Positions 14,101-51,871 of a stretch of 64,000 nt of DNA are shown piece after piece. Source of the stretch: Trypanosoma brucei (lineage: Eukaryota); assembly GCA_000002445.1 (NCBI GenBank), contig CP000070.1, positions 1,088,001 through 1,152,000 on the forward strand. The letters run 5' to 3'. Both the position numbers and the translations under genes were made by a program. Below the pieces are notes generated by a model, which was given only the letters and a program-made list of their open reading frames with translations, did no database searches and had not been told where the DNA came from. The first letter of the stretch is position 1. The number at the start of each line of letters is the position of its first letter.

Positions 14101-15388
14101 TAAGGTGTATTTTGAGTCACTGAACGAGGTACGTGAATCCATGGCGGAACACTATGGTACTCTCATGTGTGAATGCAAAACAGTATTGAGTAATGCGAAT
14201 GCTACAAGCTATGAAGCTCATCAGCAGTTGGCGGAGGAGACTCGTGCTCGTGAATTAGCTACTGACCGTCGGGTGCTTGACTTATCTAAGGTGTATTTTG
14301 AGTCACTGAACGAGGTACGTGAATCCATGGCGGAACACTATGATACTCTCATGTGTGAATGCAAAACAGTATTGAGTAATGCGAATGCTACAAGCTATGA
14401 AGCTCATCAGCAGTTGGCGGAGGAGACTCGTGCTCGTGAATTAGCTACTGACCGTCAGGTGCTTGACTTATCTAAGGTGTATTTTGAGTCACTGAACGAG
14501 GTACGTGAATCCATGGCGGAACACTATGGTACTCTCATGTGTGAATGCAAAACAGTACTGAGTAATGCGAATGCTACAAGCTATGAGGCTCATCAGCAGT
14601 TGGCGGAGGAGACTCGTGCTCGTGAATTAGCTACTGACCGTCGGGTGCTTGACTTATCTAAGGTGTATTTTGATTGTGCTGGGGTGCTATGTGACGCTGT
14701 TTTCAAAAAATGTATTTTTTTTGGTGGTGTAGTGTTTGATATTTGTCGTGATTGTTTGGTTCCTATGTCTATTTGTTCTTCCGTGTCGCTGGGCGGTGTT
14801 TATGCTTTGGGTGGCATTGATGGACTTGTGTACGAAATGGAATTGAGGAAACGGCGCATTGCAGAGTTGGAAGAATGTGTTCGGCAGAAGCACATTGTTA
14901 TCACATCACTAAAAGAGAGTATTGCCAACTTGTATGGCCTTTTGGAGGCACAGCGAGATCTTGGCATGGTCGCTCCACCTCCACCACCGTTAGTGTCGCG
15001 CGAGTTTGGTGTGCTGAACTCGAGTGCGAAAGAAGCCGTGGCATATGTGAACAGTGATGCATCTTTTTCTAGTACTTTTTTTGCATCACCATCTCGTGTT
15101 CTATCCCCTGGTGTTAATGACGGGGTGAAGTTGAAAGTGTGTCCCAGATCATTTGCTGATGAGGCTGTGTTATCAGCGGAGACAGTTGGGGGCGCTTTTA
15201 CTTCATCAAATGATCATCATGTTGCCGTTGGTGGGGTAGTTGGACACGAAGCTAATCGTACCGACCAAATTACGGATGAAGGTGAACGGTTGCAGGGCTG
15301 GAGCCTTCCTATTGATCGTAAGGAGATGCGACCAGTAAGTTGGTATTTGCAGTCTATCGCTGCCATTGAGAGTACGCTCAAGAAGTAG
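8162..15388 (+). CDS. Giant (2408 aa) protein with a unique N-terminal region, about 16 near-identical 62-aa tandem repeats and a unique C-terminal domain
   Basis: A single uninterrupted ORF. The repeat unit is ELATDRRVLDLSKVYFDSLNEVRESMAEHYGTLMCECKTVLSNANATSYEAHQQLAEEIRAR, with alternating charged and hydrophobic residues (helical or coiled-coil-like). No family is recognised. Confidence 0.7.
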   Translation: MGNEPFLLFRGSELLPGFPSSRPEGNLAQPDEGDVERLPTHLIPIEPLTHSVVRVVCHSSTRAGMSTPLAQMCALTDVRRLLEEERDKCVETARSWEGLCALHSHYPHDHATGCMPIANEELDCVASSLSLDESFVKEVLRSKLWRVKGNAESADGKVEPDLKRLKIVVSDLCQLLWHHRDGEGSISTDGVAVPDSSERCEVVRREKRKASKVEAKSVLSIIAGLTKDSLDELTASHGSVEPLLVGLVFSEVSEETCNHSGGETVGTLVGDDLLRLFDKKVEATVENKDGYGDTVDFSARVLLLNAVMERKNMKNMAHASPMWSALLSVVNFVYVTGDPATVRYVAQLINHVQCLTQQVTAEPAPRPHSKVDISLFYTPLMGVENEEGLYPSGARCVSNLKTALSEAVVGVANKKRWKPEAFSPGGSGGFQDLLQWSLMLEHVWHHCGSAPCHKVSRGIEQWIGMAVETAADIFASTAEALLLSMYVMEPLPPVCLPVADNTETAVKSVAGSPGFSVGDVLLSAHRVSLLVFGAVVGPCASDNPLLRREALEDLYGAHLKASEAVRGRLERFCARQAERTVDASPALKNLEKYQSQWSKTVELEQGKKGDSLARILYVCMEGMHHILSTPLIKHCDVPYDLGENAIAGVDGWRCSGATTSCVGRTTTNCGYGAKVNQRCQVTESPITSSWASAAKSSAICNFTMQRLLPMLLHSLGQQPVVLNGNSIVNVGTRRAVQSWEDQRMQLEGRCRAAEAMIEHQRCVIGEIRNQRSALGNRLREAQRCMRKLVMMCVGYEEGHASYAQKLAFRLKYSLEEDITSIFVPIEVKPVAGSDAWDGGETSQQSSPSPLVCGEASMVAPLAGRDDLRRLMFRDAQMQLDACHNVVRCVCQEARENLNTLSAAMMECSISYGNVSPNESLRAMFSTSLYGTRTNEPSGGYMPPTGDQECDCDGSNQGDMYQKDDSKHTYPSTIIKVPLGLSTHNNNHKNFEGKNQPRGRALEISSNESRPLSHTGKTTWGSRDEQIYQHEKQQTLNTSTKRRYVSTPSASRCSSRDIVAVIQSPKPSKAAIDAIAHLQKKHAEGKSHHQHLKKQYEDTCLSLVKTAAEFQENIARQKIEQTCWSEQNKILLAFINTTVRETQISMMKQKIEKERTLTEEDSRKLATDRRVLDLSKVYFDSLNEVRESMAEHYGTLMCECKTVLSNANATSYEAHQQLAEEIRARELATDRRVLDLSKVYFDSLNEVRESMAEHYGTLMCECKTVLSNANATSYEAHQQLAEETRARELATDRRVLDLSKVYFESLNEVRESMAEHYGTLMCECKTVLSNANATSYEAHQQLAEETRARELATDRRVLDLSKVYFDSLNEVRESMAEHYDTLMCECKTVLSNANATSYEAHQQLAEEIRARELATDRRVLDLSKVYFDSLNEVRESMAEHYDTLMCECKTVLSNANATSYEAHQQLAEETRARELATDRRVLDLSKVYFDSLNEVRESMAEHYDTLMCECKTVLSNANATSYEAHQQLAEETRARELATDRQVLDLSKVYFDSLNEVRESMAEHYDTLMCECKTVLSNANATSYEAHQQLAEETRARELATDRRVLDLSKVYFDSLNEVRESMAEHYDTLMCECKTVLSNANATSYEAHQQLAEEIRARELATDRRVLDLSKVYFDSLNEVRESMAEHYDTLMCECKTVLSNANATSYEAHQQLAEEIRARELATDRRVLDLSKVYFDSLNEVRESMAEHYGTLMCECKTVLSNANATSYEAHQQLAEETRARELATDRRVLDLSKVYFDSLNEVRESMAEHYDTLMCECKTVLSNANATSYEAHQQLAEEIRARELATDRRVLDLSKVYFESLNEVRESMAEHYDTLMCECKTVLSNANATSYEAHQQLAEEIRARELATDRRVLDLSKVYFDSLNEVRESMAEHYDTLMCECKTVLSNANATSYEAHQQLAEEIRARELATDRRVLDLSKVYFESLNEVRESMAEHYGTLMCECKTVLSNANATSYEAHQQLAEETRARELATDRRVLDLSKVYFESLNEVRESMAEHYDTLMCECKTVLSNANATSYEAHQQLAEETRARELATDRQVLDLSKVYFESLNEVRESMAEHYGTLMCECKTVLSNANATSYEAHQQLAEETRARELATDRRVLDLSKVYFDCAGVLCDAVFKKCIFFGGVVFDICRDCLVPMSICSSVSLGGVYALGGIDGLVYEMELRKRRIAELEECVRQKHIVITSLKESIANLYGLLEAQRDLGMVAPPPPPLVSREFGVLNSSAKEAVAYVNSDASFSSTFFASPSRVLSPGVNDGVKLKVCPRSFADEAVLSAETVGGAFTSSNDHHVAVGGVVGHEANRTDQITDEGERLQGWSLPIDRKEMRPVSWYLQSIAAIESTLKK
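11640..14680 (+). repeat. 186-bp tandem coding repeat array of about 16.2 copies
   Basis: The period was measured directly: ttagctactgaccgtcgggtg occurs at 11651 and 11837, and the final partial copy ends near 14672. About 7 nucleotide sites vary among copies, giving G/D, D/E, I/T and R/Q codon variants plus synonymous changes. Confidence 0.9.
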
Positions 15389-36664: not shown

Positions 36665-37117
36665 CCCAACCGCTGGGGAGAAGAGCAATAATGAAGGTAA
36701 CACATCCCAGCAATGTATCGCTGGTAATAAATCAGTCATGTGGTGGCTTTGCATCTTAATTAAAGTTCTACCTTGTGACAAAGGGCTGCAGCCTATGCTA
36801 GGAAGTAAAATGGAGCGTTAATTTTATTCGGTGGGGAGTATTATTGTAAAGGTCCCTCAATAAACGTGTAAGACGTAACCCAAAGTAGGGGCTTAAGGAA
36901 GGATGGAAGGGCACTAGAGCATGTGTCCAGTCGCAGGTGCACACGCATAAGCCCCAATGTTCCTCTCCTTGTATTCCCGTGTTCCGCCTACACGCGAACA
37001 CCCGTACAAACTCAAGAGCACAAATCACTGCATCATTGTTTCTCTTCACTCTTCCCATAATTTTTCAATGTTTGCACAGACCCCATAGCAAGTAAGTGGA
37101 GAAAAAGGTAACACACA

Positions 37118-37858
37118 GTGAGTAAGAAAAGCAGCAACGACGAGAAACAAAAGTTTGGCGTAATGGTGATGAAGGCTTTCCCCCTTTCCCTGTTAGCGGC
37201 AACCACTGTGTTATTACTGCTGCTTCCTGTTCCTGGTAGGTGTGCTGATTGCTTTGCTCATTCAAATGATTACTCCACTCCCGGGGAGCCGTTCGGCAAA
37301 TCGAAGCACACAATCACCTTAAGTGGTGGGAACTGGGGCACTGTCATAGGCAGTGACGGAAATGCACTAAAGACGGCCCTTCTACTTGACATTTACGCTC
37401 AAATACTGCGACGGCATGCTTTTAACACTTCCGTCACCGTCGACGATATGCGACAGGGAGAGCATGGCATGGAAGCTGAAGTAACCGTTACACAGGTTTT
37501 GTTGACTGATGTCCCTAGGGCCGACTTGCAGCATACATGGAATCCCAACGAAATAACATCGTTGTTAATGCAAGGGGTGTACAAACACACAAAAGATAAA
37601 CACGATCCGCATTCAGACGTCCATCTCGTTAGTGTCAGACTCCCCGCTGCGACTACAGAGCTCCACAAGTGTGGGAAGGCCTGTTGGACTGTTCGGTTAA
37701 TAGGCATCTTTATAGGGATAGCCATGATTCTCATTGCAGCATACACTATATTCATAACGCGTAAATGGGAAAAGCAAGCGGAAAAAGAACCGGATGACGA
37801 CTCTTCGCGGGAACCATTGCCAGAACAAGAACAGAGGAGGTCGAGAACACGCGTGTAG
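37118..37858 (+). CDS. Small type-I membrane protein, copy A of a 4-member family (signal peptide, about 150-aa ectodomain, one TM, short charged tail)
   Basis: MVMKAFPLSLLAATTVLLLLLPVPGRC forms a signal peptide. The C-terminal LIGIFIGIAMILIAAYTIFI is a TM segment followed by a charged tail. The motifs KTALLLDIYAQILRRHAF, LQHTWNPNEITSLLMQGVYKHT and LHKCGKACW are shared with the paralogues at 46100, 47900 and 49539. The likely true start is the Met at 37163 or 37169. Confidence 0.6.
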   Translation: MSKKSSNDEKQKFGVMVMKAFPLSLLAATTVLLLLLPVPGRCADCFAHSNDYSTPGEPFGKSKHTITLSGGNWGTVIGSDGNALKTALLLDIYAQILRRHAFNTSVTVDDMRQGEHGMEAEVTVTQVLLTDVPRADLQHTWNPNEITSLLMQGVYKHTKDKHDPHSDVHLVSVRLPAATTELHKCGKACWTVRLIGIFIGIAMILIAAYTIFITRKWEKQAEKEPDDDSSREPLPEQEQRRSRTRV

Positions 37859-37879: not shown

Positions 37880-40800
37880 GACAACAATCCGAAGTAATGC
37901 GCGGTTAGTTGCGGACAACATTCCACTGCGTCTCTTTGATATACTTTTTTTTGCTTTTGCTTTTCGCTGCATATACCAGCACCCCACTCCACGTGTGGTG
38001 AGGAGCTTGGGGTGGCATTCTTTGTTTGAACGCCTCCCATCCCCTTTTATGTTATTTTATGTTTTTTTTCCCCCTCTTGCTCGTTTATTCCCGCCCACCT
38101 TGTTGCTTTGACTGCCCTATGTACGACTGATAAATATGCATTGGACAACACATGGCTACTATTCAGTGTCTAAATACATCTTGCACACGCGGTCTTCCTG
38201 TTACTGCATGCACGGAAACTACTTTGAGCCCCCCCTTCCTTTCCCTCCCTACTTTTTCATCTTTCATATTATACCACATACATTTTGTGTATTACTCATT
38301 TTACCGTTAGCACCACCTTGCAAAGTTGTTAGCGTAATATGGGAATGTGTGTATTATATACTTCCCAATTGAATCCATATTCGGGAAGTTTTCTGTCTCC
38401 TCACTCGCCTCGTTGAAATCCTGTTAGTTGTCTCGGTATCAATGATAATATTGATGTGTGTTGAATGGTGGTTTATGGATGTGACTGTATTTTGTTGCGT
38501 ATGAACCACTGGAATGATTAAAAGGTCCTTTTAGCACTGCGGGGTTATGAATATTAATAGCCTGCACTCGTGTCAATGTATCTGGTAGTATTTTCACACC
38601 CCACCCACGTGCAACTTTTTACCTTTGCTCTGAGTTATTCTACTCCACACACCCATCGTTGCAACATTATTGGAAGTTAAGTGCTTTAGTAGTCATTAAT
38701 TTTGTAACGACTCTAATTAACGCGGTTCCGGTCGACAAAATTAAGCACTGCTGACACCCACTTCTTTATTTCCCCCACCTGGAAACAATGACTCGGCAAT
38801 CCGATGTGCAAAAATCCATGAGGACAATTTCTGATGGAGCGGAAAAGGCAGTAGAAGTACGGAAATATGACGAGAAAGCGGTGCAGCAGCGGATGCAGAA
38901 ACTTTATGCCGATGTGGCGAAAAAGAAATTAGCTGAGAAGAAGCGAGCTGATGAGTTGGCGCAGATCCCGGTGTCGGAGGAGGATGTGCAACTTTTGGTG
39001 CGTGAATGCGGTTGGGAGGCGCAGGTGGCACAACAGAAACTCCGTGAGAGGAATGGAAGCGTTGTGGCGGTTCTTCGAGATGTTGCGGGACTCCCGAAGG
39101 CCAAAGCATCGAGTGGAACCTCCTGAAACCTGACAAACAAAAAAAAACATTTACAATATAATGGTTATGACTGATTGAATGAGAGCAGCAGCGAGAGAAA
39201 CGGAAGTTGGCGGGGCCCTTTTGGTTGACTTGTTACGAGATGCTCAGAGGTGTGGAGCGTAAGCATGTGTGTAATCCCACTGAAGACAATTGCATGGTGA
39301 TGCAGGGGATGTTTGAGTTCATACAAATCTCAAACAAACACTGTAGAGGCGTTGAACTCATTAATGTCAAACTCCATCTGATTATTTCAGGCACGAATGC
39401 CCTCATGTAGGATGAAAAGGATTGCCACTTCCTTCATGTCGCAACGGATTCGCTATCAATTGCAACAGCTCCGACCTACAGCTTGTTGTGAGTTTTTAAC
39501 GCGCTTGGACTTCGGTAATGAACTTGGAACTTGATTTCCTGAGGATCGCCGCGGTGCATAATTTGTTCCTTCCCCATTTGATGTGAGCAGTGCGGTGCAC
39601 TTAACCATTGTGGTATCACTGCTTCGCTTTCTATGAGTGTGTGCTGTACAAATCTAATTCCTCTTCCACTATTTACCGTATTTGAAGCTCATTAAAGGAA
39701 CCATAATTAGCAAAGGGGGCACACTCAGTTGTCAAGGCAGTGGAACCCACAACATCCGCGCACAGCGGTGACACAAATGCATAATAGCTGCTTTTCATAC
39801 ACCTCTATTGTGGGGATGTTGATTCTCAAAGCGTAGTGGTTGTAATTTGAAATCAGGCATGGAGCGTCTGGGTAGGCGCATCGAGGCCAATCGCTTTATT
39901 ATGGGACAGTTGGATGGTATGCGAGGGTGCACGCCTGCTGTTGGTTGCAGCGGCAGCCTCAAAAAATTAAGTTATGCAACACTCGGTGTATTGCGCCGGG
40001 AGAATATGCGGCGGTGCGGGTGAGCCCTTTCACTGCACTTTGGGCAGCGGGGGTTGGGATGGTATCTACAGGGGATCTACTTCACATTGGAAAGTAAACG
40101 TCACAACTGCTGTCTCGACTGGTCGCTGATAGAACCCGTGAGGTGGAGAGAGAGACTGCTAGACCGGAGTTCCCTTCCAGGACGGATTAGCATCGGCAAA
40201 CCGAGAGGCACAAGCACGCCCTCGTTGTTGAATTACTGATCGGCATTCTGTTGGAGGTATGAAGGAATCGCAGTGGCGGCGGTGTTGATTAAAGTTTGAG
40301 AAACCTCGAGGAAAGGGAAAACCTCGTGTCGCAAAAGTCACTATTTCCCGGGAGTCACACCGGCTATAGAGGCTGAAATTGAATACTTGAGAAAACAGTT
40401 GGGCGACTGTAAAGAACAACTTATAAAATACAGAGCACACTTTGAGCAGGTTAACCACGTTATTAAGAATAGACGAATTAAAGGAAATGGTTCAGCAGCA
40501 AGCTCAGACATTGGAAAAGCTCGAAAAATATTATCAAGAACAAAACGCCCAAAAGGTCCCGTGGCCGCTGATCCTCGGAAACGATGTCTGTAAACCCCCA
40601 ACCTTCCTCCATAGACCGTCAACAGAGCACTCAGATGTACCAACATGTTTCCACTACTCCGCTCGGCTTTAGTATAAACTGGGTCGGATGGAAAAACAGA
40701 GCGGAAACCTCTGAAGGACTTTTACAATTGTATGACGAATGTGGGACTACAATTGGGAATCCTGAGAGGCCTTCATGGTACAATTCTGTAAATTAATGGG

Positions 40801-41515
40801 GGGGAAGTGAATCATCTCTACATTTTTGGACGTTCACAAGATGGGTACGGTATTATGACCACTTCGTGGCTACGGCGAATAGAATGCCAATACAATATAT
40901 AACAACAGGGGCAGCTATGTATAAAACATGGCGAATGGAAATGGCAGCACAGAAAAGAGGAGTATTTATCCCACGGGCAATACAAGAAGGATTGGATACT
41001 GAAGGAGGTATCAATGTATGATAAGATGGCAAACGCAGCTGCAAAACAAAGAGCTCAGAGAAGTCGCCAAGGACGGAATTGAAGCAATTTCAACAACCAT
41101 CAGCGTCGAACAAGCCCAAACGGGCGAAGGAAGTCCCCATCGCGGAAACAGTAGCAAAGGCGAGACTGAGCGGGGCTCGTAAAATATACCGCTCCCGACA
41201 TAAGAGAATGAAACAAAAGGCGAAGAAAGAATGGTCAAAACTACAAATCCACAAGAACAGTGAATATGTTCGAAAACACATGGGAAACAAGAAAATTCTA
41301 TGGGGGTGTTGCGATCCGCGCGCGGATATACGCAACAAAGAGATACGGGGATGCACAAATAAAATAGTAGCTCCGGCACCACCTAACCCAGTGACTGTCC
41401 CCCGCGCGCAGATTAGGCCCTGTTCGTCAGGGAACTCTGAGCGAGAGCACTGTCCGGACCTTAAAATGCCCATTCAAGCACCGGAAGTCAAGCCGATGCT
41501 ATGGCGTAAACTATT
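37880..41515. repeat. Left arm (3636 bp) of a near-perfect inverted repeat
   Basis: The boundaries were located by direct reverse-complement comparison. gacaacaatccgaagtaatgcgcggttagtt starting at 37880 matches the reverse complement ending at 46117. Identity ends after ctatt at 41515, which pairs with aatag at 42482-42486. Every ORF-track peptide inside this arm has an identical mirror on the opposite strand of the right arm. One C/T mismatch was seen near the outer edge, at 37912 versus 46076. Confidence 0.9.
38788..39126 (+). CDS. HYPK-like / UBA-like small protein (copy 1, in the left arm)
   Basis: The 112-aa protein has a long charged helix (KKKLAEKKRADELAQ) followed by a C-terminal EEDVQLLVRECGWEAQVAQQKLRERNGSVVAVLRDV block that resembles the NAC-alpha/HYPK C-terminal UBA-like domain. 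Confidence 0.5.
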   Translation: MTRQSDVQKSMRTISDGAEKAVEVRKYDEKAVQQRMQKLYADVAKKKLAEKKRADELAQIPVSEEDVQLLVRECGWEAQVAQQKLRERNGSVVAVLRDVAGLPKAKASSGTS

Positions 41516-41528
41516 AGGCTGGCATTAA
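40387..41528 (+). mobile_element. Left-arm mirror copy of the 5' part of a degenerate retroelement (frameshifted ORF1-like region plus a basic K/R-rich ORF), truncated at the arm/spacer junction
   Basis: Three overlapping + ORFs in different frames (40387-40593, 40442-40672, 40584-40796) look like one frameshifted coiled-coil ORF. They are followed by 41079-41528, which encodes the basic protein MKQFQQPSASNKPKRAKE.... On the other arm this ORF reads on into the spacer, where RT motifs follow. Confidence 0.45.
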
Positions 41529-42481
41529 CACGCTTGCACGCATTGTTGAAAAAAACTGAACTTCCTCATTATTTCTTGGAACCAGTCTAGCGGCTCAGTT
41601 GCTAATACTTTTGCCGTAGCCACCAGGCTTCCAAATAATTTTTCAAGGTCTCGCAGGTCGATTAATTTCAAATATTCTTGTGTCGTCATCTGAATAAATT
41701 GTCTAGCCACATTATTTTCAATTTATTCAGATGTTTTTCTGTTACTTGTACACTTTTATTATTGTGGTCCAAGACCGCTCCTATGGAATCATAACTGGTG
41801 GCGTAAGGCAGCGGTTCGGATAATGTCACGCAGTATTTCTCCACCTTGCCGTGGAGGAGGCTAATTATTTTTGGCGCTTGTTTTTCCGTAATTGCTAGTC
41901 TGAAATTATCGATCCAGACATCACCGTCTATCATCCGGTGCTCTCAACGCGTTACCTGCGAGTGCCCCGTTAATGTCATTACCAACCACTGCATAATTTC
42001 GCAGCTTGTTGTTAATCCCATGGGCAATTGTGTCATTTCCAAAGGCGAACCATCTGCAGTTGCAATGGAGAAGCATGCGGTGGTGTTTACCGGCAGGTCA
42101 ATTTCATAGTAACTTGCTTTTAAATCACCCACTATTGCTCCAGCAGCGGAGAGTATGTCCAGGTACTCCTGGAACGGGTTTAATTCCACTATACAGCGAT
42201 AATCACACACATTATCTAAATAGTCATTCGTCGTGTTTGGCCATACCAATAGTCTCCTCCTGTTTTTCCAGGGTTCATCGACTGTAGATGCACGGGCGAC
42301 TGGGGGATCCACTGTCGATTTCGTGATATTCGCGCTGAGTACGGTCTTGGCATCACTGGATGATAGCCACTAACGCGCTGGGACGTCGCCTATTTCGTCC
42401 CGTCTTACGTATTGCGCGGCATCGGCTAATTGCCGGAGCAGCACTTGAATTCTTTCTTGCACCTTATTTTTTGTCGAACGC
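41516..42481. other. Unique 966-bp spacer of the palindrome, holding the RT fragment of the retroelement
   Basis: This region has no mirror partner. It is fully occupied by minus-strand ORFs that continue the right-arm retroelement. Confidence 0.8.
41525..42312 (-). pseudogene. Frameshifted reverse-transcriptase fragment (Ty3/gypsy- or DIRS/VIPER-like) with a degenerate YxDD box
   Basis: The minus-strand ORF 41944-42312 contains GDLKASYYEIDL...TTACFSIATADGSPLEMTQLPMGLTTSCEIMQWLV. This is collinear with RT motifs iDLrsGYhQI ... KTAFrt.yG.yEf.vmPFGLtNAPa.FQ. The next ORF, 41686-41934 in another frame, has DVWIDNFRLAIT where VYlDDILIfS is expected. Frameshifts separate three consecutive ORFs. 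Confidence 0.55.
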
Positions 42482-43610
42482 AATAGTTTACGCCATAGCA
42501 TCGGCTTGACTTCCGGTGCTTGAATGGGCATTTTAAGGTCCGGACAGTGCTCTCGCTCAGAGTTCCCTGACGAACAGGGCCTAATCTGCGCGCGGGGGAC
42601 AGTCACTGGGTTAGGTGGTGCCGGAGCTACTATTTTATTTGTGCATCCCCGTATCTCTTTGTTGCGTATATCCGCGCGCGGATCGCAACACCCCCATAGA
42701 ATTTTCTTGTTTCCCATGTGTTTTCGAACATATTCACTGTTCTTGTGGATTTGTAGTTTTGACCATTCTTTCTTCGCCTTTTGTTTCATTCTCTTATGTC
42801 GGGAGCGGTATATTTTACGAGCCCCGCTCAGTCTCGCCTTTGCTACTGTTTCCGCGATGGGGACTTCCTTCGCCCGTTTGGGCTTGTTCGACGCTGATGG
42901 TTGTTGAAATTGCTTCAATTCCGTCCTTGGCGACTTCTCTGAGCTCTTTGTTTTGCAGCTGCGTTTGCCATCTTATCATACATTGATACCTCCTTCAGTA
43001 TCCAATCCTTCTTGTATTGCCCGTGGGATAAATACTCCTCTTTTCTGTGCTGCCATTTCCATTCGCCATGTTTTATACATAGCTGCCCCTGTTGTTATAT
43101 ATTGTATTGGCATTCTATTCGCCGTAGCCACGAAGTGGTCATAATACCGTACCCATCTTGTGAACGTCCAAAAATGTAGAGATGATTCACTTCCCCCCCA
43201 TTAATTTACAGAATTGTACCATGAAGGCCTCTCAGGATTCCCAATTGTAGTCCCACATTCGTCATACAATTGTAAAAGTCCTTCAGAGGTTTCCGCTCTG
43301 TTTTTCCATCCGACCCAGTTTATACTAAAGCCGAGCGGAGTAGTGGAAACATGTTGGTACATCTGAGTGCTCTGTTGACGGTCTATGGAGGAAGGTTGGG
43401 GGTTTACAGACATCGTTTCCGAGGATCAGCGGCCACGGGACCTTTTGGGCGTTTTGTTCTTGATAATATTTTTCGAGCTTTTCCAATGTCTGAGCTTGCT
43501 GCTGAACCATTTCCTTTAATTCGTCTATTCTTAATAACGTGGTTAACCTGCTCAAAGTGTGCTCTGTATTTTATAAGTTGTTCTTTACAGTCGCCCAACT
43601 GTTTTCTCAA
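41525..43610 (-). mobile_element. Degenerate VIPER/DIRS- or LTR-class retroelement remnant on the minus strand: a frameshifted ORF1-like region, a basic ORF (42370-42918) and the RT fragment. It is truncated where it abuts the left arm.
   Basis: The minus-strand ORFs 43404-43610, 43325-43555, 43201-43413, 42370-42918, 41944-42312, 41686-41934 and 41525-41710 are contiguous in one direction. The RT motifs are as described for the RT-fragment pseudogene feature. The element ends within about 10 bp of the palindrome junction at 41515/41516. Confidence 0.5.
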
Positions 43611-46117
43611 GTATTCAATTTCAGCCTCTATAGCCGGTGTGACTCCCGGGAAATAGTGACTTTTGCGACACGAGGTTTTCCCTTTCCTCGAGGTTTCTCA
43701 AACTTTAATCAACACCGCCGCCACTGCGATTCCTTCATACCTCCAACAGAATGCCGATCAGTAATTCAACAACGAGGGCGTGCTTGTGCCTCTCGGTTTG
43801 CCGATGCTAATCCGTCCTGGAAGGGAACTCCGGTCTAGCAGTCTCTCTCTCCACCTCACGGGTTCTATCAGCGACCAGTCGAGACAGCAGTTGTGACGTT
43901 TACTTTCCAATGTGAAGTAGATCCCCTGTAGATACCATCCCAACCCCCGCTGCCCAAAGTGCAGTGAAAGGGCTCACCCGCACCGCCGCATATTCTCCCG
44001 GCGCAATACACCGAGTGTTGCATAACTTAATTTTTTGAGGCTGCCGCTGCAACCAACAGCAGGCGTGCACCCTCGCATACCATCCAACTGTCCCATAATA
44101 AAGCGATTGGCCTCGATGCGCCTACCCAGACGCTCCATGCCTGATTTCAAATTACAACCACTACGCTTTGAGAATCAACATCCCCACAATAGAGGTGTAT
44201 GAAAAGCAGCTATTATGCATTTGTGTCACCGCTGTGCGCGGATGTTGTGGGTTCCACTGCCTTGACAACTGAGTGTGCCCCCTTTGCTAATTATGGTTCC
44301 TTTAATGAGCTTCAAATACGGTAAATAGTGGAAGAGGAATTAGATTTGTACAGCACACACTCATAGAAAGCGAAGCAGTGATACCACAATGGTTAAGTGC
44401 ACCGCACTGCTCACATCAAATGGGGAAGGAACAAATTATGCACCGCGGCGATCCTCAGGAAATCAAGTTCCAAGTTCATTACCGAAGTCCAAGCGCGTTA
44501 AAAACTCACAACAAGCTGTAGGTCGGAGCTGTTGCAATTGATAGCGAATCCGTTGCGACATGAAGGAAGTGGCAATCCTTTTCATCCTACATGAGGGCAT
44601 TCGTGCCTGAAATAATCAGATGGAGTTTGACATTAATGAGTTCAACGCCTCTACAGTGTTTGTTTGAGATTTGTATGAACTCAAACATCCCCTGCATCAC
44701 CATGCAATTGTCTTCAGTGGGATTACACACATGCTTACGCTCCACACCTCTGAGCATCTCGTAACAAGTCAACCAAAAGGGCCCCGCCAACTTCCGTTTC
44801 TCTCGCTGCTGCTCTCATTCAATCAGTCATAACCATTATATTGTAAATGTTTTTTTTTGTTTGTCAGGTTTCAGGAGGTTCCACTCGATGCTTTGGCCTT
44901 CGGGAGTCCCGCAACATCTCGAAGAACCGCCACAACGCTTCCATTCCTCTCACGGAGTTTCTGTTGTGCCACCTGCGCCTCCCAACCGCATTCACGCACC
45001 AAAAGTTGCACATCCTCCTCCGACACCGGGATCTGCGCCAACTCATCAGCTCGCTTCTTCTCAGCTAATTTCTTTTTCGCCACATCGGCATAAAGTTTCT
45101 GCATCCGCTGCTGCACCGCTTTCTCGTCATATTTCCGTACTTCTACTGCCTTTTCCGCTCCATCAGAAATTGTCCTCATGGATTTTTGCACATCGGATTG
45201 CCGAGTCATTGTTTCCAGGTGGGGGAAATAAAGAAGTGGGTGTCAGCAGTGCTTAATTTTGTCGACCGGAACCGCGTTAATTAGAGTCGTTACAAAATTA
45301 ATGACTACTAAAGCACTTAACTTCCAATAATGTTGCAACGATGGGTGTGTGGAGTAGAATAACTCAGAGCAAAGGTAAAAAGTTGCACGTGGGTGGGGTG
45401 TGAAAATACTACCAGATACATTGACACGAGTGCAGGCTATTAATATTCATAACCCCGCAGTGCTAAAAGGACCTTTTAATCATTCCAGTGGTTCATACGC
45501 AACAAAATACAGTCACATCCATAAACCACCATTCAACACACATCAATATTATCATTGATACCGAGACAACTAACAGGATTTCAACGAGGCGAGTGAGGAG
45601 ACAGAAAACTTCCCGAATATGGATTCAATTGGGAAGTATATAATACACACATTCCCATATTACGCTAACAACTTTGCAAGGTGGTGCTAACGGTAAAATG
45701 AGTAATACACAAAATGTATGTGGTATAATATGAAAGATGAAAAAGTAGGGAGGGAAAGGAAGGGGGGGCTCAAAGTAGTTTCCGTGCATGCAGTAACAGG
45801 AAGACCGCGTGTGCAAGATGTATTTAGACACTGAATAGTAGCCATGTGTTGTCCAATGCATATTTATCAGTCGTACATAGGGCAGTCAAAGCAACAAGGT
45901 GGGCGGGAATAAACGAGCAAGAGGGGGAAAAAAAACATAAAATAACATAAAAGGGGATGGGAGGCGTTCAAACAAAGAATGCCACCCCAAGCTCCTCACC
46001 ACACGTGGAGTGGGGTGCTGGTATATGCAGCGAAAAGCAAAAGCAAAAAAAAGTATATCAAAGAGACGCAGTGGAATGTTGTCCACAACTAACCGCGCAT
46101 TACTTCGGATTGTTGTC
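42482..46117. repeat. Right arm (3636 bp) of the inverted repeat
   Basis: It is the reverse complement of 37880-41515, as described for the left arm. Confidence 0.9.
44871..45209 (-). CDS. HYPK-like / UBA-like small protein (copy 2, in the right arm; identical translation to copy 1)
   Basis: A 112-aa translation identical to that of 38788-39126. Confidence 0.5.
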   Translation of the reverse strand: MTRQSDVQKSMRTISDGAEKAVEVRKYDEKAVQQRMQKLYADVAKKKLAEKKRADELAQIPVSEEDVQLLVRECGWEAQVAQQKLRERNGSVVAVLRDVAGLPKAKASSGTS

Positions 46118-46975
46118 AGCACTATTGCTATCAGATATGCCTTCGTTACTTTCTGTTTCCATTCTGGCATCGTCGACGTTTAGGACATTGACTGCATGTT
46201 TATTTGGAGTAGGAATGTCTTCCTCTTCTTCTTCTTCATCTTCCTCTTTTTCTGCATCCCTTCTCCATTTAAAAATTAAGAATACGCAAATTGCAGAAAC
46301 GAGAGCCATAAAAAACAAAATGACGCCCGAGAAGGTTCGCAGAGCCGCGCAGCCCTCCCCGCACCTATGAAGTTTTTCACTTATGGTCGGGTTCTTGACG
46401 CTCAGGAGGCGCACGGCACCGTTGCTACCGGTTTCGCTGTTACCACCGTACTCATTGTACAAGTTGTTTGTGTGTTTATACGTTCCTTGCATTAGTAACG
46501 ACGATATCTCGCTGGGATTCCATGTGTGCTGCATCTTCTCGCTCGGGGTACCATTTATCAAAACTTGCGTAATGGTCACTGTAACACTCATGTGTTTACC
46601 TCGAGTATTTACGTCGTTGATGTCAGCTGTGGTGTCGAAAGCGTGTCTCCGTAATATTTGAGCGTAAATATCAAGAAGAAGAGCCGTCTTTAGTTTCCTT
46701 TCACCCCCCGTATACACACCACCCCACTTATCGCCACTAAAAGTGATTACATGTTTCGATGTGCCCAACTGTTCTTCGTCAGTGGAATTATTGTCCCTCG
46801 GTGTTGCAAAGCAATTTTTCGAGAGAGTGGGCATGGGGATCAGCAACAGCATTGCTGCTGTTGTAAGAGAAAATGAAACCTTCACTGTCATTATGCTGAA
46901 AAGGGCTTTCTCTTTTCCTTTCTTTTTGTAAGCTACCCGTGTTTTACTTCTTTGCTCTAAGCCAAAACTTACCAA
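46100..46975 (-). CDS. Small type-I membrane protein family, copy B. It has a divergent N-terminus and a longer acidic tail. The likely start is the Met at 46891.
   Basis: MTVKVSFSLTTAAMLLLIPMPTLS is a signal peptide. KTALLLDIYAQILRRHAF, MQHTWNPSEISSLLMQGTYKHT and LHRCGEGCAAL match family motifs. The TM segment is VILFFMALVSAICVFLIF. The last 5 codons and the stop lie inside the right palindrome arm. Confidence 0.6.
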   Translation of the reverse strand: MVSFGLEQRSKTRVAYKKKGKEKALFSIMTVKVSFSLTTAAMLLLIPMPTLSKNCFATPRDNNSTDEEQLGTSKHVITFSGDKWGGVYTGGERKLKTALLLDIYAQILRRHAFDTTADINDVNTRGKHMSVTVTITQVLINGTPSEKMQHTWNPSEISSLLMQGTYKHTNNLYNEYGGNSETGSNGAVRLLSVKNPTISEKLHRCGEGCAALRTFSGVILFFMALVSAICVFLIFKWRRDAEKEEDEEEEEEDIPTPNKHAVNVLNVDDARMETESNEGISDSNSADNNPK

Positions 46976-47899: not shown

Positions 47900-48613
47900 T
47901 TATTTGTTTGTTTCCTCAGTCCTATAGTGGTCTTGATTGTAAGGATGATTGGCATTGCTCTCATCTTTTTCTTTTGGTTCCCCACGGCAACAGTTGACGA
48001 TTAGGTAAATGATCAAAATAAGTAAAGAAACCCCCATTAAAATAATAACTACCATCGCCAGCTTTAATAGTCGCCTGCATGTGTCATCGCACTCACCAAA
48101 ATGCAGTTTTCCATCATGCACCTTCACGGAGATGAGTTCCGGTCTCTTCACACCTTCGTACAAACTTAGCGTTTTACTATAATCCGTCTGCGTAATAAGT
48201 GAATTCACCTCCGCAGGCGGCCAAATGTGTTGCCTCTCAGGATTTGAAACTTGTGCCCTGACGGTTTGTACAACAACTATGAGTATTTCGATAAAGTTGT
48301 GTGTGGGGTCGAATGAGGTAATTAAAACCTCCGTCAGAAAACTTCCATTCCGTTGCACGTAACGATCGATGTCGCTCACAAGTATTTCCCTCAGTTGTTC
48401 CTCTTTCTGCTGGACAGTTGCCGCCCAATTGTCGCCATCAAATTTCACGGTATGTTTTGATGTTGAGGACTGCTGGATGTCGTCAGCACACCTACCAGGA
48501 ACAGGAAGCAGCAGTAATAACACAGTGGTTGCCGCTAACAGGGAAAGGTGGAAAGCCTTCATCACCATTACGCCAAACTTTTGTTTCTCGTCGTTGCTGC
48601 TTTTCTTACTCAC
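47900..48613 (-). CDS. Small type-I membrane protein family, copy C
   Basis: The N-terminal 40 aa are identical to copy A (MSKKSSNDEKQKFGVMVMKAF.LSLLAATTVLLLLLPVPGRCAD), as is the 5' flank. The ectodomain is divergent (RQHIWPPAEVNSLITQTDYSKT; LHFGECDDTCRRL). A C-terminal TM segment and short tail follow. Confidence 0.6.
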   Translation of the reverse strand: MSKKSSNDEKQKFGVMVMKAFHLSLLAATTVLLLLLPVPGRCADDIQQSSTSKHTVKFDGDNWAATVQQKEEQLREILVSDIDRYVQRNGSFLTEVLITSFDPTHNFIEILIVVVQTVRAQVSNPERQHIWPPAEVNSLITQTDYSKTLSLYEGVKRPELISVKVHDGKLHFGECDDTCRRLLKLAMVVIILMGVSLLILIIYLIVNCCRGEPKEKDESNANHPYNQDHYRTEETNK

Positions 48614-49538
48614 TGTGTGTTACCTTTTTCTCCACTTACTTGCTATGGGGTCTGTGCAAACATTGAAAAATTATGGGAAGAGTGAAGAGAAACAATGGTG
48701 CAGTGATTTGTGCTCTTGAGTTTGTACGGGTGTGCGCGTGTATTAAGTCAAGAAATGAGTGAGATAACAATGACCAATAAACAGGAGTCAGAAAGAGTAT
48801 TTGTACAAAGAAAAATTAGTGAACGATGCGGGAGAGCAACAACACAAGCTCAATAACAATAACGGAAAAAAGCAATGAAGACGACAGTCGCTTTGCCTAC
48901 TTGTCATCACAAATGTTAATTTCCTGCTGATGGGCAATAACCCAATGCCTACCCTCGGTAATTTGGTGAGATTCAGAGAAAAAAAGCAAAGGAATGTGGG
49001 AATTTCTTCGATCGAATGGAAACCCCTCAAAAAGGAGGAAAAAGTAAACATACGTAAAAATAACTCCCCCTCCTTCTGTCACACGAATATACAAGAATAT
49101 ATGTATTTTTACGCACACGTGAATTAAATGTTGCGCGCAACAAGAAATAAAACACAAGAGAACTTACATTGCCATTTTTTGTTTTAGTATCATCTGTTTA
49201 AGACAAATATCAACCGGTGAAGCACAAAGAGTTGTTGAAACAGAGATAAATAGATAAATTCAATAGTGTATATGAAGCACGGAGTGATGACAGTCGAAAA
49301 TACGAAGGAACGGGATGCGCATAACACAGAAGAGTGAATACGGTGCAATGACAAATCAAAAGAAAAAATACAACTCACTCGATATCATGAGACTTCTACA
49401 ATCAGAAAGCATTTGCTATTAGCGTGGAAAAAGAATGAAGAAGCAATAAAATATGTATAACAATGGCACGTACCTATAGCCACAGCTAGTATTGGGGGCA
49501 TCGAACCTGATGGGGCTAGTCCGCCGTTTTCGGTCACT

Positions 49539-50219
49539 TTAATCCCTTTCTTCAAGTTTCGGACGCCGGAAATGCGAATAAATCCAAATGTACGCCGTCA
49601 CACTAACTATTATGGTCATAGCAGCGAGAGACACGGCCACCACACCTCTAAGAATTTGACAGCTCGTGCCACATAATGGCGGACCCGGGGGAACCAAAGG
49701 AAGTCTGACGGTAATGAGTTCAACATCCCCATGGGGTTTGTACGTGCTTTTTGTGTGTTCAAATTTTCCCTGCATTATCATAGAGTTGGCCTCACTGGGA
49801 TTCCACACATGCTGCAACTCAGGCGTGGGGTCATCAGCCAATGCAACTTGTGTAACGGTCACTTCAACTTCCATTTCCCCCTCTCTCACTTTCATATTGT
49901 TGATGGTAACGGTGGTGTTGACGGCGTACTCCCGTTGCGTTTGCAAGTAAATGTCGAGCAAAAGTGACTTCCTCAACTTCGCTTCATCACTTATGACAAT
50001 TTCGTCCCATTTCGTGCCTTTAAAGGTGATTATGTGCTTCGATTTGCCGAACTCCGTTGGTTGCAAGTACAACATCGTACCATTGAGGCAGTCAGAGTGT
50101 GCGGGAACAGGAAGCAGCAGTAATAACACAGTGGTTGCCGCTAACAGGGAAAGGGGGAAAGCCTTCATCACCATTACGCCAAACTTTTGTTTCTCGTCGT
50201 TGCTGCTTTTCTTACTCAC
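49539..50219 (-). CDS. Small type-I membrane protein family, copy D
   Basis: It shares the N-terminus and 5' flank with copies A and C. Family motifs are RKSLLLDIYLQTQREYAV and LQHVWNPSEANSMIMQGKFEHT. The TM segment is VAVSLAAMTIIVSVTAYIWIY. Confidence 0.6.
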   Translation of the reverse strand: MSKKSSNDEKQKFGVMVMKAFPLSLLAATTVLLLLLPVPAHSDCLNGTMLYLQPTEFGKSKHIITFKGTKWDEIVISDEAKLRKSLLLDIYLQTQREYAVNTTVTINNMKVREGEMEVEVTVTQVALADDPTPELQHVWNPSEANSMIMQGKFEHTKSTYKPHGDVELITVRLPLVPPGPPLCGTSCQILRGVVAVSLAAMTIIVSVTAYIWIYSHFRRPKLEERD

Positions 50220-51871
50220 TGTGTGTTACCTTTTTCTCCACTTACTTGCTATGGGGTCTGTGCAAACATTGAAAAATTATGGGAAGAGTGAAGAGAAACA
50301 ATGGTGCAGTGATTTGTGCTCTTGAGTTTGTACGGGTGTGCGCGTGTATTAAGTCAAGAAATGAGTGAGATAACAATGACCAATAACGCTACTTGATGAT
50401 GGAAACAAAAAGGGTACACGCATAAGAAGTCTACCACCATTCCATGGTGTGATTATTGCAAACTCGAAGGTAGTGTCGATTAACCACCCAGACGAGCCAT
50501 CTCCAGTTGTCGTTACTGTTGTTAATAGACCGAAAACAAGCCCTAGTAAGCGGTTAATTACTGGAGGAAGGATTTGCTCCTCTTTATTGGTGCTGCATAC
50601 TAACTTGTTATCATTGTTCCTTCAGCACTGCTGTTCAGTACGATAGGAGGAGGGGATTTGAATATATATATATATATATAAACAACTTTGCAGAACCAAA
50701 ATGCATCACTGAATTCCAACGAAGCGTTAAGACGAAAAATGATAACCCCCTCTCAGCATTGTCGACGCCAAGTTTATCGTTTTAAATACAAACATGCACG
50801 GAAATACGTATGATGCGTGCCCATAAACCCGTTGGATCAAATATTCACGCGGCGGCACTCTGTAAAATATAAAATGCCCGTCATGCGGCACGACGGAACG
50901 AGCGGGTCAACTTGTGGTTTCTACCCTTTTGTATCTTCAGGGCGCAATGGTGCTTCCACAACGCACCGAAGCTACTCAATGTCGGTTCACTATCGTGTGG
51001 CAACTTCATGACTAGGCCATTTCGATTTTGAAGTTATACTTCACTACTTAGTCGCCCCACGCTCCATTTCATTTGGAAGTACCGTATCTAACGCGGTGCC
51101 AAGGCTTGTTTTTGCTCCTTTGGCAGAACAAAAACATTCAGTAGCAAACGGTTGGCAGTAAAGTTTGAGATGGGCCGACTAAGAACTCAGAGCCGTTGGC
51201 GCGGATGTCCCCACGGGTTGGTTTAGTATGCCCAAGTGACGTGCTCAGTGAGTTCTTCAGCTGAGTCCTTACGTATTGTGTGAAGGCCGTAGTTAAGCGG
51301 CAGCATTCGTGGGGCCAGATTATTTGACCAAATAGCTGCGACAAGTGAAGGAATACCTTCAGCAGCCTAGTTCTTGTCCATAGTTCCCCTAGAGATAGCT
51401 CTTATGAAGGAGAAAAAGTGAAGGCAACCCATTGGATGTTAGAAGTGAAGCGACGCGAAAGGGGGAAACAGTAAATCTTGCGGATGAAGAAATGCAAACG
51501 TATATCTCATGAGAGTTTGGCTCGAAAGGGAGGCGTTTTGTCAAAAGCGTACGAATGGAAAGGGAAAGAAGGGACAAGTGGCATTTGCGTACTCCCTTTA
51601 AAGTTAGGAACCACAGTTGCACGTCTTCCCGGATGCTCATCCATCCACCTCTTCGCACTGTCACCAGGGCCCCCCTGCCGATTGGGACATGGCTCTCATA
51701 TCAAATAACGCTTTCAAAAGCCTTAACAATTAATAGTCATAAATAATAATAATAATATTGATAGTAGTCGGCACGATGCTGTGCCATGAACGAAGACCGA
51801 CATCCATTCAGTCACAACGCAGTTTCACGCCGTGGAGAACTGCAACGCTGGATTCAGCTTTTTCCTGGTGA

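What the first reader, a model, noticed from the sequence alone, without database searches (positions are those of the whole stretch)
41516..43610. A degenerate Ty3/DIRS (VIPER-like) retroelement is split by the palindrome junction, and its RT half forms the unique spacer
On the minus strand, a frameshifted coiled-coil ORF1-like region (43.2-43.6 kb) is followed by a basic K/R-rich ORF (42918 down to 42370) and then by three frameshifted ORFs carrying clear RT motifs: the GYhQI-like box YYEIDL, the PFGLtNAP..FQ-like box LPMGLTTSCEIMQ, and a decayed YxDD box that reads WIDN. The element stops within about 10 bp of 41515/41516, which is exactly where the mirror-image left arm begins. The left arm reproduces only the 5' part of the element, up to that breakpoint. 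This places the inversion-duplication breakpoint inside the retroelement. That is the signature expected if the palindrome arose by fold-back or template switching within the element, or by a break at the element.
Basis: partly seen in the sequence, partly recalled or inferred. Interest (0 to 1): 0.6.

Follow-up and report, generated by a model that had tools for sequence, protein, structure and literature searches.

The report
VIPER retroelement remnant in palindrome spacer
The 966-base unique centre of a known small-RNA-producing palindrome on Trypanosoma brucei chromosome 7 is mostly a dead reverse-transcriptase fragment of the VIPER retrotransposon; this is a modest, apparently unreported detail that hints at how the palindrome arose.

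Summary
The window is T. brucei TREU927 chromosome 7 at a convergent strand-switch region. The palindrome has 3,636-nt arms (37880-41515 and 42482-46117) and a 966-nt spacer. It is the published siRNA locus Tb927_07_IR3.

The minus strand of the spacer encodes a decayed VIPER-type reverse transcriptase (42369 to about 41675). A VIPER RT/RH profile scores it at 102 bits, E=3e-30. tblastn with the T. theileri VIPER ORF3 gives E=4e-22. TATE and ingi queries do not match.

Three corrections:
- WIDN is the native VIPER motif C, not a decayed YxDD.
- The pieces are separated by two in-frame stops and one TREU927-specific 5-nt insertion, not by three frameshifts.
- Pfam RVT_1 does not detect the fragment.

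The claim that the arms hold the element's 5' half is not shown. No tyrosine recombinase or RNase H is detectable, and gag-like ORFs are too divergent to test. The arm does carry a statistically real decayed ORF that continues into the spacer in the RT frame, but it has no homologues.

The palindrome and spacer are conserved in T. b. gambiense and T. equiperdum. The arms evolve in concert; the spacer drifts.

Verdict: a new VIPER remnant inside a known locus. Interest is moderate to low.

The parts
37880..41515 (.). Left arm of inverted repeat IR3. It contains the ESP12 3' flank, the HYPK/NAC-UBA gene and 2.4 kb of inner sequence.
   Evidence: the repeat finder I1: 3,636 nt, 100% complementary. 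The arm length and chromosome match Tb927_07_IR3.
41516..42481 (.). Unique 966-nt spacer, which forms the loop of the fold-back.
   Evidence: It is conserved as a 957-nt spacer in T. b. gambiense and T. equiperdum. It differs from T. b. gambiense by 25 substitutions and 13 gap columns.
42482..46117 (.). Right arm of IR3, the mirror image of the left arm.
   Evidence: The arms evolve in concert: 43 of 74 variable alignment columns are fixed in both arms of a strain.
41947..42369 (-). VIPER RT remnant, part 1 (141 aa). It carries NRRRLLVWP (42264-42238), motif A DLKASYYEIDLP (42126-42091) and motif B LPMGLTTSCEIMQ (42027-41989).
   Evidence: VIPER HMM E=1e-17, 60.9 bits, profile positions 23-117. 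tblastn with T. cruzi P0027 aa 201-417 covers 42369-41710, E=2e-17.
41689..41943 (-). VIPER RT remnant, part 2 (85 aa), in the same frame after a TGA stop. It carries motif C VWIDN (41919-41905) and IGAVLDHNNKSVQV (41784-41743).
   Evidence: VIPER HMM E=6.7e-11, profile positions 120-189. tblastn with T. theileri P0030 aa 89-279 covers 42288-41716, E=4e-22.
41528..41722 (-). Tail ORF (65 aa), frameshifted in TREU927 only. It sits where the RT thumb would be and stops 10 nt from the left junction.
   Evidence: It is continuous with part 2 in T. b. gambiense and T. equiperdum. Homology beyond about profile position 200 is not significant.
42373..42972 (-). Orphan K/R-rich decayed ORF (200 aa between stops). 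It crosses the right junction and is in frame with the RT.
   Evidence: The open frame is non-random: 163 codons, P about 3e-4. There are no homologues except the same locus in T. b. gambiense. The AlphaFold model is uninformative (pLDDT 57, pTM 0.26).
41079..41528 (+). Mirror copy of the orphan ORF in the left arm. It ends ...LWRKLLGWH-stop, 13 nt past the junction.
   Evidence: the ORF listing.
42979..43425 (-). Two further 74-aa open stretches in the same frame, upstream of the orphan ORF.
   Evidence: Only 3 stops in 314 codons, P<1/3000. The two stretches are joined into one 145-aa ORF in T. b. gambiense.
38788..39126 (+). HYPK/NAC-UBA-like gene (112 aa), left-arm copy.
   Evidence: Exact match to AAZ12488/AAZ12489. 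Pfam UBA_HYPK.
44871..45209 (-). HYPK/NAC-UBA-like gene, right-arm copy.
37163..37858 (+). ESP12 gene, immediately outside the left arm.
   Evidence: Exact match to AAZ12487. It is a mirrored paralogue of ESP13, 44% aa identity.
46100..46891 (-). ESP13 gene. Its last 17 nt lie inside the right arm.
   Evidence: Exact match to AAZ12490..

Best explanation
The unique 966-nt spacer of the known T. brucei chromosome 7 inverted repeat IR3 lies at the point where two polycistronic transcription units converge. At least 72% of it (42369 to about 41675, minus strand) is a dead fragment of a VIPER tyrosine-recombinase retrotransposon.

What the fragment is:
- It covers only the fingers-palm part of ORF3, with motifs A, B and the native xIDN motif C.
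- It lacks RNase H and the recombinase.
- It carries two in-frame stops and strain-specific indels, so it encodes nothing.

What it does now (inferred from the anatomy plus published small-RNA data):
- It acts as the loop that separates the two 3.6-kb arms. A spacer of this size allows a long palindrome to persist.
- Read-through RNA polymerase II transcripts from either side fold back into a 3.6-kb double-stranded stem, which the Dicers cut into AGO1-bound siRNAs.
- Convergent transcription across the loop also turns the VIPER fragment into siRNAs.

How it arose (inferred, probability about 0.4):
- A VIPER copy lay at the end of a transcription unit.
- A break or replication template switch inside its RT-thumb/RNase H region produced the inverted duplication, leaving the RT piece as the pivot.
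- Gene conversion has since kept the arms identical while the spacer drifts.
For: Identity of the locus:
- Exact matches to TREU927 chromosome 7 proteins.
- Genes on the + strand up to 39126 and on the - strand from 44871.
- Arms of 3,636 nt, matching Tb927_07_IR3, which was PCR-verified, gave 372,045 AGO1-bound reads and has a spacer that also yields small RNAs (PMC3447711).

VIPER RT:
- The profile built from the Ribeiro et al. 2019 alignment hits only the two spacer ORFs, collinearly, at E=1e-17 and E=7e-11. Concatenated, they score 102 bits, E=3e-30.
- tblastn with T. theileri ORF3 gives E=4e-22 and with T. cruzi ORF3 E=2e-17.
- The TATE profile and an ingi-type RT give nothing.

Truncation:
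- Profile positions 222-335 (RNase H) have no hit in the window.
- There is no YR hit.

Pseudogene status:
- In-frame stops.
- Indels that are not multiples of three differ between strains.
- 8 synonymous and 10 non-synonymous substitutions against T. b. gambiense.

Conservation and concerted evolution:
- The same structure occurs in T. b. gambiense and in two T. equiperdum assemblies.
- Arms differ by 0-20 sites within a strain and by 56-59 between TREU927 and the other two strains (13-26 between those two); 43 differences are fixed in both arms.

Origin:
- The RT ORF ends 10 nt from the left junction and RNase H is missing.
- T. vivax and T. cruzi have WD40, HYPK and the ESP-like genes all on one strand, so the T. 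brucei arrangement is a derived inversion or inverted duplication.
Against: - Pfam RVT_1 does not detect the fragment. Neither did a word-seeded search of 5.8 billion proteins or phmmer against PDB sequences. The assignment rests on a family-specific profile and on tblastn.
- Significant homology stops about 160 nt short of the left junction and 112 nt short of the right one. That a junction cuts the element is therefore inferred from ORF continuity and the missing RNase H, not seen directly.
- Both ends of the detectable fragment lie near both junctions. A single fold-back break does not predict this, and it fits an insertion into a pre-existing palindrome equally well.
- No microhomology is visible at the junctions.
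- The siRNA evidence comes from the literature and was not re-mapped here.
- No other T. brucei VIPER copy could be examined.
Confidence: 0.75

Rival explanations
1. The palindrome came first. A break at its fragile centre (hairpin or cruciform cleavage) was repaired with capture of a VIPER cDNA or DNA fragment as filler, so the RT fragment is an insertion and not the site of the founding break.
For: Both ends of the detectable VIPER homology lie within 112-160 nt of the two junctions, so the fragment is roughly the same as the spacer. No YR, gag-like or RNase H sequence is detectable in either arm. Capture of retroelement cDNA at double-strand breaks is established in yeast (my own knowledge).
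Against: The arm ORF runs into the spacer and is in frame with the RT. Under this model that would be chance (my estimate, about 0.08). The arm ORF and the RT show a similar degree of decay: 3 stops in 314 codons against 2 stops in 226 codons. Neither target-site features nor filler-type microhomology is visible.
Confidence: 0.2
2. The VIPER fragment is a bystander. Two older, inverted ESP-HYPK units faced each other across unique DNA that happened to contain a VIPER remnant.
For: Mirror symmetry continues outside the perfect arms at much lower identity: ESP12 against ESP13 is 69% nt and 44% aa. Ongoing conversion is demonstrated. The arm boundary differs by 3 nt between strains. Retroelements also sit at the end of this gene array in other species: a VIPER in T. 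cruzi CL Brener and an ingi-like element in T. vivax.
Against: This model does not explain why the RT ORF ends 10 nt from the left junction with RNase H missing. It also does not explain why the arms end exactly at the ESP gene 3' ends, unless selection on the ESP genes is added.
Confidence: 0.2
3. The arm ORFs together with the spacer RT are a single internally deleted VIPER (gag-like, no YR, then RT). The right arm then carries the true 5' half of the element.
For: The frame is open in the arm: 163 codons next to the junction, P about 3e-4, and no more than 3 stops in 314 codons, P<1/3000. It is in frame with the RT. In T. cruzi and T. theileri the ORF3 frame is likewise open for 250-265 codons upstream of the RT core. 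VIPER gag-like ORFs diverge too fast to be recognised.
Against: The conserved YR, which is 65% identical between T. cruzi and T. theileri, is absent in every frame. The 200-aa ORF has no homologue anywhere else. Positional alignment to the VIPER ORF3 N-terminus is not significant (P=0.5-0.7). Substitutions in the arm ORF between strains show no codon-position bias (my hand count from the list).
Confidence: 0.3
4. The RT motifs are chance matches, or the palindrome is an assembly artefact.
For: Pfam, PDB and word-seeded searches were negative. Perfect inverted repeats can be produced by chimeric reads.
Against: The VIPER profile scores E=3e-30 and tblastn E=4e-22. The same structure is present in three independently assembled genomes. 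The repeat was PCR-verified and confirmed by Northern blot.
Confidence: 0.01

Closest known systems
VIPER (vestigial interposed retroelement), the tyrosine-recombinase retrotransposon of trypanosomatids (Vazquez 2000; Lorenzi 2006; Ribeiro 2019, PMC6681497)
   Same: The RT sequence is collinear with VIPER ORF3 over profile positions 24-191, about 33% identical to the T. theileri copy. It has the family's DLKAS, LPMG and VWIDN motifs. Like all reported T. brucei copies, it is degenerate.
   Different: Only about 0.7 kb of a roughly 4.5-kb element is recognisable. There is no recombinase, no RNase H, no recognisable gag-like ORF, and the split direct repeats were not examined. It is not among the 15 best T. 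brucei copies listed by Ribeiro et al.. It has no annotated gene in TREU927, since the flanking accessions are consecutive.
Tb927_07_IR3, a long siRNA-producing inverted repeat of T. brucei (Tschudi et al. 2012, PMC3447711; also Reynolds et al. 2016, PMC4721609)
   Same: It is the same locus: chromosome 7, 3,636-bp arms that are essentially identical, at a convergent strand-switch region. The published data show that siRNAs also come from the spacer.
   Different: Those papers do not mention VIPER (0 occurrences) and do not say what the spacer is. A search of the paper library found no paper linking VIPER to this repeat.
Hairpin-RNA (hpRNA) endo-siRNA loci of Drosophila and inverted-repeat siRNA loci of plants
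   Same: A long transcribed inverted repeat folds back into double-stranded RNA, which Dicer cuts into Argonaute-bound siRNAs.
   Different: Here the arms contain a duplicated, apparently functional host gene (HYPK-like). The loop is a retroelement fragment. Transcription comes from polycistronic read-through at a convergent site.
Palindrome or inverted-duplication formation by fold-back priming or template switching at a break (yeast, Tetrahymena, human inverted duplications)
   Same: There is a spacer-containing perfect inverted duplication, and one junction truncates a pre-existing sequence (the RT ORF).
   Different: This is an interstitial event, not a terminal one. No junction microhomology is visible. 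Later gene conversion has erased any asymmetry between the arms.

Membership tests
VIPER retrotransposon | RT domain homologous to VIPER ORF3 | tested here: met
   VIPER HMM E=1e-17 and 6.7e-11; concatenated 102 bits, E=3e-30. tblastn E=4e-22 and 2e-17.
VIPER retrotransposon | Family-typical motifs: DLKAS-type motif A, LPMG motif B and xIDN (VWIDN) motif C | tested here: met
   The motifs lie at 42126-42091, 42027-41989 and 41919-41905. The same motifs occur in the VIPER rows of the published alignment.
VIPER retrotransposon | RNase H domain fused downstream of the RT | tested here: not met
   Profile positions 222-335 have no hit in any of the 1,945 six-frame ORFs of the window. The positive controls T. 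theileri L011 and T. cruzi L009 are found.
VIPER retrotransposon | Tyrosine recombinase ORF upstream of the RT ORF and overlapping it | tested here: not met
   YR HMM best E=1.3, at another place in the window. tblastn and tblastx are negative. The controls score E=6e-130 and 1e-77.
VIPER retrotransposon | gag-like ORF1 | tested here: inconclusive
   There is no match. However, the T. theileri gag-like ORFs do not detect the T. cruzi VIPER loci either.
VIPER retrotransposon | Split direct repeats (A1 ... B1 A2 B2) at the ends | not testable with these tools
   No T. brucei VIPER consensus or other genomic copy was reachable. No suitable direct repeats appear in the window.
Pfam RVT_1 (PF00078) | Score above the gathering threshold | tested here: not met
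   No RVT_1 hit at E up to 10, for single or concatenated ORFs. Some intact T. cruzi VIPER proteins do carry PF00078.
TATE (the other trypanosomatid YR retrotransposon) | RT/RH homologous to the TATE profile | tested here: not met
   The TATE HMM gives no hit in the locus.
ingi/L1Tc non-LTR retroposons | Homology to ingi-type RT or endonuclease | tested here: not met
   tblastn with the T. vivax ingi-like ORFs gives nothing in the spacer.
Ty3/gypsy-type LTR retrotransposon | Flanking long terminal direct repeats | tested here: not met
   No direct repeats flank the region. Integrase and protease were not tested.
siRNA-producing long inverted repeat (Tb927_07_IR3) | Chromosome 7 location, 3,636-bp near-identical arms and a unique spacer | tested here: met
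siRNA-producing long inverted repeat (Tb927_07_IR3) | AGO1-bound siRNAs from the arms and the spacer | not testable with these tools
   Taken from PMC3447711. No read data are available here.

The most novel reading that the evidence does not exclude
IR3 may be more than a palindrome that happens to contain a retroelement scrap. On this reading VIPER remnants seed T. brucei's siRNA-producing inverted repeats: a break in a VIPER copy at the end of a transcription unit creates the fold-back, and the retained VIPER loop, transcribed from both sides, supplies trans-acting siRNAs against other VIPER copies, much as a piRNA-cluster-like trap would. One further coincidence fits this. By coordinates, a VIPER copy listed by Ribeiro et al. 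(Tb927_02 894682-911167) overlaps Tschudi's IR1 (Tb927_02 898600-902200).
Probability: 0.12. Interest if true: 0.6.

Novelty: new member of a known kind. Interest (0 to 1): 0.35.

Why it matters
Tschudi et al. described the seven long, near-perfect inverted repeats of T. brucei as a curiosity of unknown origin and maintenance. Identifying the IR3 spacer as a truncated VIPER RT gives the first concrete clue to how the most productive of these repeats may have arisen. It also means that some of the 'inverted-repeat' siRNAs are retroelement-derived. Both points can be tested with existing genomes and small-RNA data. It remains a small addition to a known locus and a known element family.

Tried and rejected
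Searches of the spacer that found nothing:
- Pfam on the single and concatenated spacer ORFs gave no RT.
- The word-seeded search of 5.8 billion proteins with the spacer translation gave nothing.
- phmmer against PDB sequences gave only a chance L,D-transpeptidase match.

Tests of the arm sequence:
- A full HMMER scan with the 200-aa arm ORF returned only its own T. b. gambiense copy.
- The AlphaFold model of that ORF was too poor to search with (pLDDT 57, pTM 0.26).
- My by-eye alignment of the junction-spanning residues (MPIQAPEVKPML...) to the VIPER ORF3 N-terminus (IPLQQVNVPVL...) was not significant by HMM or by shuffle test (P=0.5-0.7). I dropped it.
- Similarity of the tail ORF to the VIPER thumb was likewise not significant.
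- T. theileri gag-like ORFs are useless as probes.

Other checks:
- No junction microhomology is visible.
- No tRNA or Rfam family lies in or near the palindrome.
- The published alignment holds no T. brucei, T. congolense or T. vivax rows. No other T. brucei VIPER copy could be fetched.
Full report
**Where the window comes from**

Exact look-ups of eight window proteins identify T. brucei brucei TREU927 chromosome 7. The matches include ELO2 (AAZ12481), ESP12 (AAZ12487), two identical 112-aa HYPK/NAC-UBA-like proteins (AAZ12488 and AAZ12489), ESP13 (AAZ12490) and nudC. All long ORFs up to 39126 are on the + strand, and all from 44871 onward are on the - strand. The finding therefore sits at a convergent strand-switch region.

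**The palindrome**

The repeat finder reports arms at 37880-41515 and 42482-46117. They are 3,636 nt long and 100% complementary, with 966 nt between them. This is Tb927_07_IR3 of Tschudi et al. 2012 (PMC3447711): 3,636 bp, PCR-verified in another strain, and the most productive inverted-repeat siRNA source with 372,045 AGO1-bound reads. Small RNAs also arise from the region between the repeats. Reynolds et al. 2016 include IR3 among the H3.V-regulated siRNA loci. The palindrome itself is thus real and already known. Neither paper says what the spacer is, and VIPER is not mentioned.

**Checking the observation**

On the minus strand a single frame reads as follows:
- 42972-42373 (200 aa), then TAG;
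- 42369-41947 (141 aa), then TGA;
- 41943-41689 (85 aa);
- a +1-frame ORF at 41722-41528, which stops 10 nt from the left junction.

Generic tools failed to recognise an RT. Pfam gave nothing for single or concatenated ORFs. The word-seeded protein search gave nothing, and PDB sequences gave only a chance match.

**Identifying the RT**

The supplementary RT/RH alignment of Ribeiro et al. 2019 (PMC6681497) showed by eye that the VIPER rows read RRRxIAWP, DLKASFFQVxLP, LPMGYxxSPEIxQ and VWIDNIRxxG.

- A profile built from ten VIPER rows, searched with all filters off against every stop-to-stop ORF of the window (1,945 ORFs), hit only the two spacer ORFs. The hits are collinear, at E=1e-17 (profile 23-117) and E=6.7e-11 (profile 120-189).
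- The concatenated sequence scores 102 bits, E=3e-30, over profile positions 24-191.
- tblastn with the T. theileri ORF3 protein (P0030) aligns aa 89-279 to 42288-41716 at E=4e-22. The T. cruzi protein P0027 aligns aa 201-417 to 42369-41710 at E=2e-17.
- A profile of a second lineage represented mainly by Crithidia fasciculata copies scores lower, a TATE profile scores nothing, and a T. vivax ingi-type RT matches nothing.

The spacer is therefore a VIPER-lineage RT remnant. WIDN is the family's native motif C, not a decayed YxDD.

**How much of the element is present**

- The RNase H half of the profile (positions 222-335) has no hit anywhere in the window.
- A tyrosine-recombinase profile finds nothing. 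It was built from the T. theileri and T. cruzi YRs, which are 65% identical to each other, plus Crithidia rows. The best score is E=1.3, elsewhere in the window. The same profile scores E=6e-130 and 1e-77 on the control loci.
- tblastx of the complete T. theileri and T. cruzi VIPER loci against 39101-44900 matches only the RT.
- gag-like ORFs cannot be used as probes. The T. theileri ones do not even detect the T. cruzi copies.
- Significant homology ends at 42369 on the right, 112 nt inside the spacer, and at about 41675 on the left, about 160 nt inside it. My attempts to extend it were not significant.

**The arm ORF**

The frame that carries the RT stays open for 163 codons into the right arm and has only 3 stops in 314 codons. 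Under a second-order Markov null trained on the arm, these have P about 3e-4 and P<1/3000. A decayed ORF is therefore really present in both arms.

It has no homologue among 1.84 billion representative proteins except the T. b. gambiense ORF at the same locus. Its predicted structure is mostly disordered. My hand count of the substitutions between strains listed shows no codon-position bias.

Its being in frame with the RT is only weak evidence for a single element. I estimate the chance probability at about one third multiplied by the probability of 36 further open codons, or about 0.08. Whether the arms hold the element's 5' half is therefore undecided. The canonical VIPER order (gag-like, YR, RT/RH) is not met.

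**Comparative data**

The palindrome with a 957-nt spacer is present in T. b. gambiense DAL972 and in a T. equiperdum chromosome assembly. A second T. equiperdum contig covers the right arm and the spacer and runs about 30 nt into the left arm, where it ends.

- Arms differ by 0-1 sites within TREU927, 3 within T. b. gambiense and 20 within T. equiperdum. TREU927 differs from the other two strains by 56-59 sites; T. b. gambiense and T. equiperdum differ from each other by 13-26.
- 43 of 74 variable columns are fixed in both arms of a strain, which is the signature of gene conversion.
- The spacer differs from T. b. gambiense by 25 substitutions and 13 gap columns. These include a 2-nt and a 5-nt indel.
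- Within the RT frame there are 8 synonymous and 10 non-synonymous changes. This fits a drifting pseudogene.
- The frameshift before the tail ORF is specific to TREU927.

**Outgroups**

In T. vivax and T. cruzi the WD40 gene, HYPK and the ESP-like genes all lie on one strand. The mirrored T. brucei arrangement is therefore derived.

Just outside the perfect arms, ESP12 and ESP13 are mirrored paralogues with 44% aa identity. Either an older, larger inverted arrangement has been homogenised only in its inner 3.6 kb, or diverged paralogues flanked the duplicated unit.

**Mechanism**

Shown here:
- the identity of the spacer;
- its truncation at both ends;
- its pseudogene state;
- conservation of the palindrome across Trypanozoon;
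- concerted evolution of the arms.

Taken from the literature:
- siRNA production from the arms and the spacer.

Inferred:
- The fragment now acts only as the loop of a transcribed fold-back and as a spacer that makes the palindrome tolerable.
- A break or template switch within a VIPER copy created the inverted duplication (probability about 0.4). This rests on the RT ORF ending at the left junction without RNase H.

Rival origin models are capture of a VIPER fragment at the centre of an existing palindrome and a bystander fragment between older inverted units. Both stay open, because both ends of the detectable fragment lie close to both junctions and no microhomology is visible.

**Verdict**

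Several details are corrected. The split-element claim is unproven. The locus (IR3) and the element family (VIPER) are both known. Their coincidence appears unreported in the searchable literature, and it is of moderate interest.

Noticed in passing
Literature coordinates: Tb927_02 898600-902200 (IR1) against Tb927_02 894682-911167: One of the 15 best T. brucei VIPER copies listed by Ribeiro et al. overlaps, by coordinates, Tschudi's inverted repeat IR1 on chromosome 2. This may be a second association between VIPER and an siRNA-producing inverted repeat. The genome versions may differ.
   Followed up: no
Literature: Tb927.5.290 and Tb09.160.3400: Tschudi et al. report two siRNA-producing 'pseudogenes' whose parent genes are unknown. 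Because the unannotated IR3 spacer turned out to be VIPER, these should be tested with the VIPER RT and YR profiles.
   Followed up: no
window 36989-37248 against 48483-48742 and 50104-50348: A segment of 245-260 nt (the 5' region and signal peptide MVMKAFPLSLLAATTVLLLLLPVP) is 99% identical between ESP12 and two ESP-family genes on the other side of the palindrome. The rest of these genes is only 29-51% identical at the protein level. This suggests local gene conversion of the 5' ends.
   Followed up: partly
window 37163-37858 and 46100-46891: ESP12 and ESP13 are mirrored paralogues (44% aa, 69% nt) lying immediately outside the perfect arms. The arm boundaries coincide with the 3' ends of these genes.
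   Followed up: partly
L014:14411-17440 (T. cruzi CL Brener) and L012:15006-17573 (T. vivax): A VIPER copy with frame-broken YR and RT/RH lies on the opposite strand about 4 kb downstream of the T. cruzi CL Brener HYPK orthologue. It is absent from another T. cruzi assembly (L013). T. vivax has an ingi-like element at the end of the same array. The end of this gene array seems to collect retroelements repeatedly. Orthology of the insertions is unlikely.
   Followed up: partly
L012:10001-10342 and 12340-12681 (T. vivax): T. vivax carries two HYPK-like genes in direct tandem, each followed by an ESP-like gene. The ESP-HYPK unit has thus been duplicated independently: directly in T. vivax and in inverted form in T. 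brucei.
   Followed up: no
Protein hits P0017-P0136: T. cruzi, T. theileri and Leptomonas VIPER RT/RH proteins are widely misannotated in public records as 'target of rapamycin (TOR) kinase 1', 'rab1 small GTP-binding protein', 'protein kinase' and similar names.
   Followed up: no
window 11649-14738: Sixteen tandem copies of a 186-nt (62-aa) unit, 98-99% identical, lie inside the 2,408-aa ORF at 8162-15388.
   Followed up: no
window 6367-7226: A degenerate 36-nt periodic repeat encodes a proline-rich ...YRPPTDKPSSGA... array in the 507-aa ORF at 5713-7236.
   Followed up: no
window 41694-41698: A 5-nt insertion specific to TREU927 causes the frameshift before the tail ORF. T. b. gambiense and T. 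equiperdum read straight through from RT motif E to the stop beside the left junction.
   Followed up: yes
window 42475-42481 and the equivalents in L003 and L002: The inner arm boundary lies 3 nt further in for T. b. gambiense and T. equiperdum (...ACTATTAGG) than for TREU927 (...ACTATT). Three substitutions cluster at the right junction.
   Followed up: partly
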